A stretch of DNA of 64,000 bases from Podarcis pityusensis (taxonomy: Eukaryota): the NCBI GenBank assembly GCA_964106645.2, contig OZ067040.1, one strand, 5' to 3'. Numbering within the stretch: position 1 is the stretch's first letter; every line of letters starts with the position of its first letter. The position numbers are program-made. Shown here piece by piece: positions 23,346 to 29,300 of this stretch.

Positions 23346-26300
23346 GGGGGTTTTGTTGGTTTCTGCTTTCCTTCACTGTGCAGCGAAAGGGCTTGTCACG
23401 AGACAGGTGTTTACATTCCACAGTCTGTACTGTTGGAGTTTCTCACGGGAAAGGGAGGCTGGATGTGACGTACACTGGTTTCCTGTTTTTCACTGTACTT
23501 TGCAGTTTCACTTTGTGATTCTCTCCGAGCTGTCGAGGAGAGAGGATGCATTTTTCTGCTCCGGCAGAGGCAAGATGTCTTTCTGTAATATACCAGCTTT
23601 GAACTGTAAATAAAGCAATATAGAGTATGCAGCACGTACTCCTCATCCTTCCGCTGGGCACGAGACTCTGCTTTAAATCAACACGTGGTTATGGGCTCCA
23701 GAAGTCGAATCGGAGTGCCGGCAAAGGATCGGAATGCAGAGGGACAGATCGGAACGGAATCTGCTCTGCGCGTAAAAGTGATTGATGAGGTATGTGCTAC
23801 TGCTCCGGGCAGCCTGCCAGCTTCTAGTTAATGGCTTTATGGCTGGACTTTGAACTTTCAAAGCCGTTTTGCCGGGAATAGGCAAAAGGCTCCCAGGCAC
23901 AAGTTACTATGCTGGGGAAATCGAAAGTAACTTTTAAGTGCGCTTTTGGAATAAGGCAGCTGCAGCAGTGACGCAGCAAGATTTAAAGCAGCATATATGA
24001 CGCTGAAGGCTAATGCCAGAGTCATGATGGCCCTTCAGGATGCTTGTGGGATTCCTAAGCTCAACAAGAAAAATTACGCCGACTGGGTTCTGTATGCAGA
24101 GGCAATTCTGCGGAAAGAGGGTTTGTTTGAGGTGATTACAGAAACCCCCCCAGCTCCAGTTACAGATGCATGGGAAGCTAAGGATTCCAAAGCAAGGGGA
24201 ACTCTTACATTGATAGTATCCCCAGAAGAGCTCTGTCTATTGCGTGATAAGACCTCAGCCAGAGAAATTTGGGACGCTTTGAGAGAAGCTCACTTAAGGA
24301 CAGAAGCTGGATCCACTATGTTTTACTTTAACAAGCTGCATAATATGGCTCTTGCTGAAGGTGGAGATGTGCGTTTACATCTGATGGAGATGCAAAATCT
24401 GAGACATGAGCTGCAACAGAGAGGACTCAACTTTCCAGAGGCTGTGTATTCTTTCATGATACTACAATCTTTGAGTTCAGGTTGGGAGTCTGTTGCAACC
24501 CAGATTGCTGTGCAGCCAACCGCTCAGCTGACAGTGGACTTTGTTACTGCCGTGATTTTAAATGAAGCAGATCGCCGGGGTGCTAGCTGCATGGGCAAGG
24601 GGGAGTCTTCACAGACGTCATCCCATAGTGCAGTGGAACCACCAGATGGCACCAAAGCTTTGAAGGCAGTGAAATGCTACTCGTGTGGACGTCTAGGCCA
24701 TATGAAGAGGGAATGCAGATATCCCAGGGCCAAGACAGAGCAGCGCAGCGAAAGCTCATCGCGCGGAAAAGGCCGAGGCAAAGGCAAAGGCAAAGGTCCG
24801 GTGTCTAGGACAACGCAGCACAAGGCTATGGTTTCACGCTTCACTCCAAAGGTTGCAGAGGTCCAGAAGACGTCTAGATCTTTCTTCGTTGTTGATTCAG
24901 CGGCAACCCACCACATGTGCAATGATAAGAGACTGTTTGTGTCTTTTACACCGCAGGAAGGTGCGATTCACCAGGCGGATGACCACACTATTCCCAGTAA
25001 AGGCTACGGAACTGTTGTTCTTCACAGTTTGGACTTATCGATACAGAATGTGCTTTACGTGCCAGACGCCAAACATAATCTGCTCAGCGTTGGACAGCTG
25101 AATGAGCGGAACATTGACGTTTCCTTCAAGAACAGGAAGTGCATCATCACAAAGAAAAATGATTATGTATTGCATGCTGAATATGTTGATCGTTTGTTTG
25201 TTTTGTATTATGATGATGTTGAAAAGGATGACACTTGTTGCATTGCAGGTTCTAACAAAAGTTTGCATGCAGAATGTATTCACGATTTTCATAGAAAATT
25301 TGGTCATTTGCATTTTGAGGCAGTATCTAAAATGCCTGCCTTGGTTGAAGGTATGACTATTAAACCCTGCAGGTACCACATGAAGTGCAAAGCATGCGCA
25401 GCAAACAAGGTGAAAATGGCTGCGAAAGGTAAGGTGTCTAGTAGGCAACCTACAGAACCATACCAGGTTGTTCATGCTGATTTAGTTGGACCACTAGCGC
25501 CCTCTTTGGGTGGAAATAGGTACTTCATGGTTCTCATTGATGCATTTTCTAGATATATTTTTGTGTACAATCTCAAGCAGAAATCAGAGGCTTTTCCTAG
25601 GTTCAAGGAATTCTGTGCTTGGTTGGAAAATGTGCACGGTAAGAAGATAAAGACTCTTTTCACTGATCGCGGGGGGGAATTCACTTCTCAGCAGTTTGAA
25701 GCTTTTCTGACTGAGAAAGGAATTCAACACGATTTGTCTAGTCCTCGCTCGCCATGGCAGAATGGACTTGCGGAACGGGCAAATCAGACATTGCTTCAAG
25801 GGTTAAAAACCTTGCTGCATGATGCCAATCTTCCAGAGAGTTATTGGGCCGAATCTCTCTCGTGTTTTGTTTACAGTTACAATCGCAGGTTATCTTCAGC
25901 GATTGGTTGTACCCCCTATGAGAAGATGTTTGGCAAGAAGCCATACATCAAACACATGAAGATTTTTGGTTCTGACATGTGGGTTCGCTCACCACAAAAC
26001 TCCAAGTTAGACAAGCGTGGATTGCATGGTATCTTTCTAGGTTATCAGAAAGGGTCTTACAGAATAATGATGACTGACTCTAAGACAATTAAGCTCACGA
26101 GAAGTGTTGAGTACAATGCAAAGTGGGGGGAGAATGTGGGAATTTTCCAATGTTATCCTGATGACGGTGATGAGACTGAGGATAGTCAAAAGCAACCACA
26201 ACAACCCACACCCACTGATGAAGGTTCTGAGTCTGAATCTGAAACTGAATCGGGTGATTCAGAGGATTTCAAGAGTGCGAAAGCCTCTATGCGACCCTCT

Positions 26301-29300
26301 GAAAGCTCTGATCAAGAATTGGAGGAACCATTGTTCACAATAGGTCGTTTTTCTCCTAAGAAGGAAGAGGAGAGTGTTGAAGACTTAAGGCTAATTCGTA
26401 GGTCACAGAGAGCCACAAAAGGCAGACCTCCAAAGAGATTTGCTGATGAGTTTGCTACGATAGCAGTAACAGCTGTTAAAAGCTCCAAGAAGGTATTTGA
26501 ACCTTCAAGTTTCCAAGACATCCAGGGTTTGGATTCAAAGGAAGCTGAGCCATGGTTAAATGCCATGAAGGCTGAGCTTGATTCCTTAGAAAGGAACAAC
26601 ACATGGGAGCTAGTTCCAGTAGTTCCAGGAATGAAACTGCTTGGAAGCAAATGGGTCTTCAAAGCGAAGACAGATCAAAATGGCAAGATAGTCAGACACA
26701 AAGCCAGATTGGTAGCCAGAGGTTTTGCACAGGTACCAGGTGAAGACTATCACGAGACCTATTCACCCACAGTGAGATATGAAAGCATTAGGCTTATGCT
26801 CAAGCTAGCTGCAGAGGAAAATCTACACATTAGTCACCATGATATTAATACAGCTTTTCTGTACGGATCTCTAGATGAATCACTTTATATGCTTCCACCT
26901 GATGGCGTACAGGTAAAACAGGGATTTGTTTGTGCTCTGAAGAAATCCCTTTATGGTCTCAAACAAAGTGCACGGTGTTGGCACACAAAACTCACTGAAG
27001 TATTGTTTTCTCTAGGTTTTCAGCAAGGAAAAGCTGATCCATGTGTATTTGTCAAAGAGGAGGGGCAAAAGAAACTGTACTGTTTGTTTTATGTTGATGA
27101 TTTATTATTCTTTTGGAAAGATGTCGCAATGTACAATAACGCCCTAGCTCAACTGAAAGAGCACTTTGACATGAAAGATCTTGGTGAGGTAAACAACTAC
27201 CTATCTCTGGAAATAGAGAGAGGTCAAGATGGTAACATTCTAGTACACCAGTCACGGAAAATTGCTGATGTGTTAAGCAAACTAAATCTGATGGATGCTA
27301 ACCCTGTAGACACACCGATGACAACGGGTTATCAGGTAGATGACACTGAAGAAGCATTTTCTGACACTACACTGTACAGAAGTGTGCTAGGCAAGCTAAA
27401 CTTCATTGCCAGATGTTCAAGACCAGACATTGCTGTTAGCTGTAATTTGCTAAGCAGACAAGTCAACAATCCTAGTGTCAAGGATTGGAAAGCTCTGAAA
27501 CGCATAGCGCGGTATTTGAAAGGCACTATGCATTACAGACTGAGATTTAACAATCAGAAGTCTGGTGGTCTTGAGATATTTGCAGATGCAAGTTTTGGAA
27601 GTGACACTACAGACAGGAAAAGTACGTCTGGAGTTTGCTACATGTACAATCAAGGTCTGTTTGATTGGTCATGCAAGAAGCAAACAACAGTTAGCTTAAG
27701 TACTTGTGAAGCCGAACTGAATGCACTGTCTTATTCACTTAAGGATTGTGAATGGTTAATACAATTGTGCAAAGATATGAAAATTCCTGTCAAATGTCCA
27801 ATCCAGGTTTACCAGGACAACAAAGCATGTTTGGCTTTGCTGAAGTCTGAAGGTTGTAAGCAAAGCACAAAGCACTTGCAATTAAAGTTGCAGCATGCTA
27901 GGGAATGTATTCAGAAGGGACTCGTAACGGTGTCCTATATGCCAGGTAATGAAATTCCTGCTGATGTATTGTCCAAGATTGTATCAAGGGATCAACACTG
28001 TACTTATGTGCAGAAGTTGGGTTTGTACTGATATTGTACAAACACGCTGCCCAGTGATGTTCACAGAAAGGGGGAGGATGTTGGTTTCTGCTTTCCTTCA
28101 CTGTGCAGCGAAAGGGCTTGTCACGAGACAGGTGTTTACATTCCACAGTCTGTACTGTTGGAGTTTCTCACGGGAAAGGGAGGCTGGATGTGACGTACAC
28201 TGGTTTCCTGTTTTTCACTGTACTTTGCAGTTTCACTTTGTGATTCTCTCCGAGCTGTCGAGGAGAGAGGATGCATTTTTCTGCTCCGGCAGAGGCAAGA
28301 TGTCTTTCTGTAATATACCAGCTTTGAACTGTAAATAAAGCAATATAGAGTATGCAGCACGTACTCCTCATCCTTCCGCTGGGCACGAGACTCTGCTTTA
28401 AATCAACACGTTTAACTACGTCATCTATGGTTGTTGTCTCTGGGAATTTCTGGAGTGAGCAAGTAAGCTCACCATTTGACTGTCAGATGTAGAACATGAA
28501 TAGTCCTCCAGTGATAATCCAACAATGATATTTGACGTGCCGACTGAATAGACGGTTGTGAGGTACAGTTTTGAGAAGGAAAGTGGTTTTTGTTCTTTTT
28601 ATAAAGAAGGGGCTGAATCATGTTTATTTTCCTTTCGAGAATAAATTATAAATGCCACACAGATCAGCCTGTCTGAAAAGGCTGAATTAATTAGCCTGTC
28701 ACCTGAGAGAGTTATCGTCCTTTCTGCCAAGGATGGAGTGTTTTCAAAGAGCACTACAGAGATCCCATGTGGTACTTGACCTTTCCAGAGATGTGGTAGA
28801 CAGATCAACGGGTGAGTGACTGCAACAAGCTGAAATGGCATAGCTGGGAAGAAGGAGAAGAGGTAGAAAAAAGTTGTGAGAGCAATTGAGAACATAATTT
28901 TCATAAACCTTAAAGAACTACTTCGGTTTGTAAGGTGAAGGATGGAACTAGTGATCCACGTAGGTGGCCTTGTTTCATGAGTACAGGTAAAACTTGTAAA
29001 GCTGGTGTTTCCCAAACTTTGGATAGGAAAAAAAAACACATGAATTAAAATGGGAATTATGCTTCATTCTTACACCCCCCCAAATGTTTACAGCAGCCTT
29101 CTTCAACCTGGTGTCACCCAGATGTGCTGACTATCACTCCCATCATCCTTGACCTTGACAGAGGAGGCAAGTGGAGTTTAAATATACAGTGGTACCTCTG
29201 GTTACGTACTTAATTTGTTCCAGAGGTCTGTTCTTAACCTGAAACTGTTCTTAACCTGAAGCACCACTTTAGCTAATGGGGCCTCCTCCTGCTGCTGCTG

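What the first reader, a model, noticed from the sequence alone, without database searches (positions are those of the whole stretch)
23354..28408. Intact, very young Ty1/Copia retrotransposon in an amniote (lizard) genome
Seen: LTRs with no difference found over 330 bp, one uninterrupted 1344-aa ORF with PR, IN, RT and RH catalytic residues present, PBS and PPT intact, CpGs retained. Established: Copia (Pseudoviridae) elements are patchy in vertebrates, essentially absent from birds and mammals, and little studied in squamates. Inference: this is a recent, possibly polymorphic insertion of a family that may still be active. It could be an undescribed lineage or a horizontal acquisition. Best candidate for a novel system in this window.
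Basis: partly seen in the sequence, partly recalled or inferred. Interest (0 to 1): 0.75.

Follow-up and report, generated by a model that had tools for sequence, protein, structure and literature searches.

The report
Intact young Copia element in lizard
This is a complete, recently inserted Copia-type jumping gene in a wall-lizard-like genome. It is an ordinary find, because lizards and snakes are now known to be the animals richest in such elements.

Summary
Window 23354-28408 is a 5,055-bp LTR retrotransposon. Its two 330-bp LTRs are identical (330 of 330) and it has one open 1,344-codon gag-pol frame. The domains run in Copia order: gag, CCHC, protease, integrase, RT, RNase H. A polypurine tract abuts the 3' LTR, a TGG-initiated primer site lies 2 nt after the 5' LTR, and the flanking 5-bp duplication matches at 4 of 5. 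CpG o/e is 0.475, against 0.27 in the rest of the window.

The host is a lacertid lizard. MAN1A1 exons in the window match Podarcis muralis best, and a Podarcis lilfordi gene model holds pieces of the same family.

The novelty claim does not hold. A 2025 survey found Copia in 23 of 24 squamates, with 66% of all metazoan copies being squamate and all lepidosaur elements in the Mtanga clade (PMC11889832). Polymorphic Copia insertions are catalogued in Anolis (PMC7561263). A near-identical Copia caused two corn-snake colour alleles (PMC11948899).

"Very young" means only under about 2-5 million years, because the LTRs are short. Copy number, polymorphism and clade were not testable here. Verdict: a new member of a known kind, of low interest.

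The parts
23349..23353 (+). Upstream copy of the target-site duplication (GGTTT)
   Evidence: the 5-bp flanks match the downstream copy at 4 of 5. It lies at the end of a (GT)n(GA)n plus G-run microsatellite.
23354..23683 (+). 5' LTR, 330 bp, TG...CA ends, AATAAA at 23609-23614
   Evidence: 330 of 330 identical to the 3' LTR; 5-nt terminal inverted repeat and the AATAAA position. The U3/R/U5 limits were not determined.
23684..23996 (+). Leader, holding the putative primer-binding site (about 23686-23701, starting TGG) and two upstream ATGs
   Evidence: direct reading. The tRNA partner was not tested.
23997..28031 (+). Single gag-pol ORF, 1,344 codons plus stop; 0 stops and 0 frameshifts
   Evidence: Full-length alignment to P0001 at 55% identity and 99% coverage.
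24099..24581 (+). Gag, copia-type (aa 35-195)
   Evidence: PF14223, E 8.9e-29; aa 22-252 match the solved Drosophila 'Copia VLP protein' 8vvw, E 9.4e-9.
24672..24719 (+). CCHC zinc knuckle (aa 226-241)
   Evidence: PF00098, E 2.2e-5. C-x2-C-x4-H-x4-C starts at aa 227.
24885..25112 (+). Aspartic protease barrel (aa 297-372), active-site triplet D-S-A
   Evidence: PF22936, E 2.4e-20; motif position and its shares among 91 relatives.
25194..25838 (+). Integrase: zinc-binding HHCC region (aa 424-467) and catalytic core with D,D-35-E (aa 486-614)
   Evidence: PF13976 (weak), PF00665 E 2e-15, PF13683; motif positions; matches the 7z0h 'Integrase' chain, E 6.4e-15.
25929..26117 (+). SH3-like domain after the integrase core (aa 645-707)
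   Evidence: PF25597, E 1.6e-14.
26595..27323 (+). Reverse transcriptase, Copia type (aa 867-1109), YVDD present
   Evidence: PF07727, E 3.6e-69, profile positions 1-243 of 244. YVDD at aa 1032.
27564..27986 (+). RNase H region (about aa 1190-1330), with acidic D/E/D/D motifs
   Evidence: motif positions; 20 of 21 highly conserved columns matched. No separate Pfam model hit; the limits are approximate.
28065..28078 (+). Polypurine tract, 14 nt, abutting the 3' LTR
   Evidence: direct reading.
28079..28408 (+). 3' LTR, 330 bp
   Evidence: 0 mismatches to the 5' LTR.
28409..28413 (+). Downstream copy of the target-site duplication (CGTTT)

Best explanation
It is a structurally complete, autonomous Ty1/Copia LTR retrotransposon, 5,055 bp long, in an apparently intergenic stretch of a lacertid lizard genome. 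It lies at least 23 kb beyond the stop codon of MAN1A1.

Shown here: all the parts such an element carries are present and unbroken. These are two identical LTRs, a leader with a TGG-initiated primer site, one gag-pol frame with protease, integrase, RT and RNase H motifs, a polypurine tract, and a near-perfect 5-bp target duplication.

Inferred from what is established for the superfamily, and not shown here: the 5' LTR drives a full-length RNA that ends in the 3' LTR. That RNA is translated into one polyprotein, which the protease cuts. Gag forms particles, and a cellular tRNA or tRNA fragment primes minus-strand DNA at the primer site. The polypurine tract primes the plus strand. Integrase then inserts the copy with a 5-bp duplication, which makes the two LTRs identical at the moment of insertion.

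The identical LTRs, the open frame and the retained CpGs together point to an insertion within roughly the last 2-5 million years at most, and possibly much later.

On published host distribution it most likely belongs to the Mtanga clade, the only Copia clade reported in lepidosaurs. This is inferred from the literature, not tested here.
For: - Anatomy.
- Copia domain order, with RVT_2 at E 3.6e-69 and copia-type gag at E 8.9e-29.
- Gag matches the solved Drosophila Copia capsid, and the integrase matches the 7z0h integrase chain.
- 96 of 102 highly conserved columns are kept, which is within the range of 52 relatives.
- CpG o/e is 0.475, against 0.267 outside the element.
- Host: 247 of 258 aligned MAN1A1 residues are identical to Podarcis muralis (95.7%), against 86.8-91.4% for nine other reptiles.
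- Same family in Podarcis lilfordi: in gene model P0056, five short tblastn blocks against the element are 92.6-100% identical at the protein level. The leader block is 76%, and the long gag-integrase alignment has 262 identities in about 295 ungapped pairs.
- Literature: PMC11889832, PMC7561263, PMC4657000, PMC11948899.
Against: - Nothing here shows transcription, particles or new insertions.
- Only one copy was seen. There is no second copy or solo LTR in the 64 kb, and the genome-wide copy number is unknown.
- The target duplication has one mismatch.
- The protease triplet is D-S-A, not D-S/T-G. It is shared by 8 of 91 relatives, and its effect is unknown.
- By eye, the primer site agrees with the 12-nt 3'-end tRNA-Met-type PBS printed for GalEa/CoRex elements at only 5 of 12 positions (PMC3587641). 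Its tRNA partner is unidentified.
- The window protein departs from 6 of 102 conserved columns, slightly below the median of its relatives.
- Mtanga membership rests on a paper's statement about squamates, not on a tree with the reference element.
Confidence: 0.9

Rival explanations
1. The insertion is older, several million years or more. The LTRs look identical either because 330 bp is too short to have collected a difference, or because the two LTRs were homogenised by gene conversion.
For: Zero differences in 330 bp give a 95% upper bound of rate x time = 0.0045 per site. That is about 4.5 My at an assumed 1e-9 per site per year, or about 2.3 My at 2e-9 (my arithmetic; the rates are assumed and come from no call). 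The target duplication already carries one mismatch.
Against: The 4,032-nt frame has no stop or frameshift. All 10 CpGs of each LTR are unchanged between the copies, and element-wide CpG o/e is about 1.8 times the background. Gene conversion would not protect the internal frame.
Confidence: 0.15
2. It is an assembly artefact: a collapsed or polished mosaic of several copies of a multi-copy family. In that case the perfect LTR identity and the open frame describe no single real locus.
For: The family has other copies in a Podarcis genome (P0056). Repeats about 5 kb long are where assemblers err. No reads were available to me.
Against: Both junctions carry matching target-duplication flanks (4 of 5, chance about 0.016), and the flanks are unique in the window. 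There are no N runs.
Confidence: 0.04
3. The family entered lacertids recently by horizontal transfer from a non-squamate host.
For: - Apart from the Podarcis fragments, the nearest full-length protein in 5.8 billion sequences is only 55% identical (P0001, an unnamed record).
- Named non-squamate hits are 30-44% identical in spider, whipworm, mosquito, plant and fungus.
- CpG content is above the host background.
- Klai et al. raise horizontal transfer for Copia in general.
Against: - A diverged copy exists in Podarcis lilfordi.
- RT-RNase H clusters with an Elgaria lizard sequence (46%) and P0001 (71%), apart from all named non-squamate sequences, in an unbootstrapped NJ tree.
- No close non-squamate relative was found among the 150 best of 226,940 hits.
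- Gene annotation masks transposons, so the lack of close squamate proteins is expected.
Confidence: 0.06

Closest known systems
Corn-snake Copia LTR retrotransposon (5,832-bp insertion in OCA2 and CLCN2; PMC4657000, PMC11948899)
   Same: Both are squamate Copia elements with gag, integrase, RT and RNase H domains. The snake element has many near-identical copies, and its authors take it as possibly still active.
   Different: The host (snake) and the length (5,832 vs 5,055 bp) differ. I had no sequence of it, so identity to the window element was not measured. The authors found it only in Pantherophis and Pituophis.
Mtanga clade of Copia (reference element from Anopheles gambiae; Klai et al. 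2025, PMC11889832)
   Same: It is the only Copia clade that paper found in Lepidosauria, and 90% of its clusters come from squamates. Host and superfamily fit.
   Different: Membership was not tested because no reference sequence was available. The named mosquito hits here are only 32-37% identical in RT-RNase H.
Anolis carolinensis Copia families in Repbase (for example 'Copia-6', named in PMC4657000) and the Copia insertions catalogued in PMC7561263
   Same: They are lizard Copia elements, and 1,962 insertions are recorded in population data.
   Different: Repbase and Dfam could not be searched, so the relationship to this family is unknown.
Drosophila copia
   Same: The Gag is homologous to the solved Copia capsid protein (8vvw, E 9.4e-9, aa 22-252). 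I recall that Drosophila copia also has a single gag-pol frame; no call shows this.
   Different: It is only a distant relative. Drosophila copia primes from a 'half-tRNA' (PMC5371799, passage). Whether this element does the same is untested.
Yeast Ty1
   Same: The integrase core matches the 7z0h 'Integrase' chain (E 6.4e-15). I recall 7z0h to be Ty1 integrase bound to RNA polymerase III; the tool gives only the name 'Integrase'. The domain order is the same.
   Different: As I recall, Ty1 makes Gag-Pol by a frameshift, whereas here there is one continuous frame.

Membership tests
Ty1/Copia superfamily (Pseudoviridae-type LTR retrotransposons) | Pol domains in the order protease - integrase - reverse transcriptase - RNase H | tested here: met
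   Pol_BBD aa 297-372, rve aa 486-586, RVT_2 aa 867-1109. RNase H motifs at aa 1197-1323.
Ty1/Copia superfamily (Pseudoviridae-type LTR retrotransposons) | Copia-type reverse transcriptase (Pfam RVT_2) | tested here: met
   E 3.6e-69, 233.5 bits against a cut-off of 31.6, covering 243 of 244 profile positions.
Ty1/Copia superfamily (Pseudoviridae-type LTR retrotransposons) | Copia-type Gag with a CCHC knuckle | tested here: met
   PF14223 E 8.9e-29 and PF00098 E 2.2e-5; match to the Copia VLP protein 8vvw.
Ty1/Copia superfamily (Pseudoviridae-type LTR retrotransposons) | Direct long terminal repeats ending TG...CA | tested here: met
   330 of 330 identical, with a 5-nt terminal inverted repeat.
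Ty1/Copia superfamily (Pseudoviridae-type LTR retrotransposons) | 5-bp target-site duplication | tested here: inconclusive
   4 of 5 match (chance about 0.016). A perfect 4-bp duplication is possible if the LTR is taken 1 nt longer.
Ty1/Copia superfamily (Pseudoviridae-type LTR retrotransposons) | A polypurine tract next to the 3' LTR, and a tRNA-complementary primer site next to the 5' LTR | tested here: inconclusive
   PPT: present. PBS: starts TGG 2 nt after the LTR. No tRNA sequence came from any tool: ARAGORN found 0 tRNA genes in the window and Rfam gave 0 matches.
Mtanga clade of Copia | RT/RNase H groups with the Anopheles gambiae Mtanga reference in a tree with the other clade references | not testable with these tools
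   No tool fetches the reference by name, and the paper's supplements are closed. The only support is the statement that only Mtanga occurs in Lepidosauria (PMC11889832).
GalEa / CoRex Copia elements (aquatic clades, also in fishes) | The shared 12-nt PBS complementary to the 3' end of tRNA-Met, as printed in PMC3587641 | tested here: not met
   By eye, against the motif: 5 of 12 positions agree, including the first four.
Endogenous retrovirus (Retroviridae) or Ty3/Gypsy | Integrase downstream of RT-RNase H; an env gene for retroviruses | tested here: not met
   integrase precedes RT; no further sense-strand ORF of at least 100 aa inside the element, apart from a 129-aa one that overlaps the end of gag-pol and the 3' LTR.

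The most novel reading that the evidence does not exclude
This is a copy of a Copia family that is still multiplying in wall lizards (Podarcis or near relatives), so the insertion is polymorphic among individuals. Its primer site is unlike the classic 3'-end tRNA-Met type and may work through an internal tRNA fragment, as reported for Drosophila copia. That would give lacertids a live LTR-retrotransposon marker system like the one that produced colour alleles in corn snakes.
Probability: 0.3. Interest if true: 0.3.

Novelty: new member of a known kind. Interest (0 to 1): 0.15.

Why it matters
The finding matters little on its own. It is a clean, fully annotated example of an intact Copia copy in a lacertid genome. 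It could serve as a reference for annotating the family and for looking at insertion polymorphism in Podarcis, a genus much used in evolutionary studies. It does not open a new question, because high Copia abundance, recent amplification and phenotype-causing insertions in squamates are already in print (PMC11889832, PMC7561263, PMC11948899).

Tried and rejected
- Orthologous locus in Podarcis lilfordi. The gene model P0056 also matches window 17903-18135, but four separate parts of the model hit that same short stretch. It is a dispersed repeat, not evidence of a shared locus.
- tRNA partner of the primer site. ARAGORN found 0 tRNA genes in the window and Rfam gave 0 matches at gathering score, so no tool-given tRNA was available.
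- Close annotated squamate proteins. An RT-RNase H search among proteins of 266-849 aa gave 3,755 hits among 8,000 scored candidates, with 120 listed. Only Elgaria (46%) is a named squamate.
- Full HMMER scan of the integrase-to-RNase H part. It gave 226,940 hits. Among the 150 listed, only P0248 (79% over 285 aa) and P0002 (53%) exceed 39% identity.
- Host from one MAN1A1 exon. The exon is too conserved, at 97% in many reptiles. Comparison over five exons was needed.
- Domesticated gene or retrovirus. Both are rejected by the LTRs, the domain order and the absence of env.
- Not possible: Dfam, Repbase and GyDB look-up, genome-wide copy count, and any DNA of relatives.
- Paper supplements are closed. 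I therefore could not see whether a lacertid was among the 24 squamates of PMC11889832, nor its clade tables.
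Full report
**1. Is it there?**

Yes. The repeat finder reported one direct-repeat family around the stated coordinates. A base-by-base comparison shows 23354-23683 and 28079-28408 to be 330 bp each with 0 mismatches. The LTRs end TG...CA with a 5-nt perfect terminal inverted repeat, and each holds one AATAAA, at 23609 in the 5' copy.

Between them lies one open frame, 23997-28031, of 1,344 codons. It has no stops and no frameshifts, and it is the only ORF above 200 aa in the whole window. 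The window has no N.

The 5-bp flanks are GGTTT and CGTTT, matching at 4 of 5. The chance of at least 4 of 5 is about 0.016 (my arithmetic). The identity between the two ends also runs 3 nt beyond the CA, so an exact 4-bp duplication with a 331-bp LTR is an alternative reading.

A 14-nt purine run (28065-28078) abuts the 3' LTR, and TGG begins 2 nt after the 5' LTR.

CpG observed/expected is 0.475 in the element (116 CpGs). It is 0.22 and 0.26 in the 10-kb flanks, and 0.267 in the rest of the window.

**2. What is it?**

Pfam places the domains in this order: copia-type gag (E 8.9e-29), a CCHC knuckle, the Pol beta-barrel protease (E 2.4e-20), the integrase core (E 2e-15), an SH3-like domain and RVT_2 (E 3.6e-69). 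Integrase before RT is the Copia order. It excludes Gypsy and retroviral layouts.

Against solved structures, the integrase matches the 7z0h 'Integrase' chain (E 6.4e-15). Residues 22-252 match the Drosophila 'Copia VLP protein' 8vvw (E 9.4e-9).

All expected motifs are present:
- CCHC.
- Integrase H-x4-H...C-x2-C and D,D-35-E.
- RT YVDD.
- The RNase H acidic residues.

The protease triplet is D-S-A, not D-S/T-G. Among 91 relatives that cover the column, 71 have G, 8 have A and 12 have M. The Podarcis lilfordi copy also has A. I read this as a lineage variant rather than damage, but its effect is unknown.

At 102 columns where at least 90% of 52 full-length relatives agree, this protein agrees at 96. 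The relatives have median 100 and range 62-102, and 14 of 52 score 96 or lower. The nearest relative, P0001, scores 99.

**3. Host and surroundings**

Two stop-to-stop frames out of 132 scanned hit Glyco_hydro_47. One exon, searched alone, returns MAN1A1 from many vertebrates.

Exon-by-exon tblastn finds the last five coding exons on the minus strand, from 60450 down to 51539. There, 247 of 258 aligned residues (95.7%) are identical to the Podarcis muralis protein. The figure is 86.8-91.4% for nine other reptiles.

The element lies at least 23 kb beyond the MAN1A1 stop. No Pfam domain was found in ORFs around it, so it is intergenic as far as I can see. The 64 kb holds no second copy and no solo LTR.

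The host is therefore a lacertid lizard, closest to Podarcis among the ten proteins compared. The species is not determined.

**4. Relatives**

The whole protein was searched in the 5.8-billion-sequence collection. That gave 167 hits among 7,999 scored candidates, with 120 listed.
- The best hit is P0001, an unnamed record: 55% identity and 99% coverage.
- P0056, a Podarcis lilfordi 'hypothetical predicted protein', is a chimeric gene model containing pieces of the same family. Five short tblastn blocks against the element are 92.6-100% identical. The leader block is 76%. The long gag-integrase alignment has 262 identities in 479 columns, of which 184 are gaps.
- Other named hits are from an Elgaria lizard (46%), the spider Araneus (32-38% overall) and plants (about 30%).

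A full HMMER scan with the integrase-to-RNase H part found 226,940 proteins at E up to 0.001. Among the best 150, only P0248 (79% over 285 aa) and P0002 (53%) exceed 39% identity.

An RT-RNase H search among shorter proteins added Trichuris muris at 41-42%.

In a neighbour-joining tree of RT-RNase H, without bootstrap, the window groups with P0001 (71%) and then Elgaria (46%). These sit apart from the spider, nematode, mosquito, plant and fungal sequences.

**5. How it most likely works**

Shown: all the parts are intact.

Inferred from the established Ty1/Copia cycle:
- Transcription runs from the 5' LTR to the 3' LTR.
- One polyprotein is made and cut by its protease.
- Gag forms particles.
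- Minus-strand DNA is primed at the primer site, and plus-strand DNA at the polypurine tract.
- Integration produces a 5-bp duplication.

The LTR layout (U3/R/U5) was not determined.

By eye, the primer site agrees with the 12-nt 3'-end tRNA-Met-type site printed for GalEa/CoRex elements at 5 of 12 positions (PMC3587641, passages). Drosophila copia is said to use a 'half-tRNA' (PMC5371799, one passage). Whether this element does so is an untested lead, because no tRNA sequence came from a tool.

**6. How young?**

Zero differences in 330 bp give a 95% upper bound of rate x time = 0.0045. That is about 4.5 My at an assumed 1e-9 per site per year, or about 2.3 My at 2e-9. The rates are assumed and the arithmetic is mine.

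The open 4-kb frame and the unchanged CpGs push the estimate in the same direction. 'Young' is therefore supported. 'Very young' and 'polymorphic' are not shown.

**7. Comparison with what is known**

- Klai et al. 2025 (PMC11889832; abstract, outline and passages read, supplements closed). They surveyed 263 metazoan genomes and found Copia in 23 of 24 Squamata. Thirteen squamates had very high copy numbers. 66% of 49,920 copies were squamate, and only the Mtanga clade occurred in Lepidosauria.
- Chalopin et al. 2015 (PMC4350176, three passages). They already list Copia as present in reptiles and lost in birds and mammals.
- Bourgeois et al. 2020 (PMC7561263, two passages). They tabulate 1,962 Copia insertions in Anolis population data.
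- Saenko et al. 2015 (PMC4657000, one passage) and the 2025 corn-snake CLCN2 paper (PMC11948899, four passages). They describe a 5,832-bp Copia with 85 copies above 95% identity. It is inserted in two colour genes with one base difference between the inserts, and the authors consider it possibly active.

A search for Podarcis + copia + 'transposable elements' found 1 paper, on another lizard's genome, which I did not read. I therefore found no printed description of this particular family. However, Dfam and Repbase could not be consulted.

**8. Verdict**

This is a real, intact and recently inserted Copia element in a lacertid genome. It is a new member of a well-documented kind. The claims of an undescribed lineage, a horizontal acquisition or a novel system are not supported. 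Interest is low.

Noticed in passing
window 51539-60450, minus strand: The last five coding exons of MAN1A1 (glycosyl hydrolase family 47). They match Podarcis muralis best, and the stop codon is near 51539. The exons were searched one at a time and never joined.
   Followed up: partly
window about 4000-5250: A CpG island (GC 0.57-0.69, CpG o/e 0.61-1.13). The ORFs there have no Pfam hit. It may be the promoter or first exon of an unidentified gene.
   Followed up: no
window 29184-30729: A unit of about 1.55 kb bounded by long inverted arms: 149 nt at 96% and 122 nt at 88% complementarity. It also holds mirrored 16-nt tandem units. It lies 0.8 kb downstream of the Copia element and looks like a non-autonomous DNA transposon. 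It was not classified.
   Followed up: partly
window 17903-18135: A short stretch hit by four different parts of the Podarcis lilfordi gene model P0056. It is a dispersed repeat, perhaps a SINE, shared with that genome.
   Followed up: partly
window 23684-24035 (leader and start of gag): There are two upstream ATGs. The P. lilfordi gene model reads across two GT...AG gaps that correspond to window 23790-23881 and 23927-24035. This is a predictor's model, not evidence of splicing. It was not joined and not tested.
   Followed up: no
window 23318-23353: A (GT)n(GA)n microsatellite followed by a run of seven G lies directly against the 5' LTR. The one mismatch in the target duplication falls at the edge of this slippage-prone run.
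   Followed up: no
relatives P0390-P0392, P0395: Among named non-squamate proteins, several from the whipworm Trichuris muris are 41-42% identical in RT-RNase H, about the same as the 42-44% of the spider proteins. This is curious, given that Copia is reported as rare in nematodes (PMC11889832).
   Followed up: no
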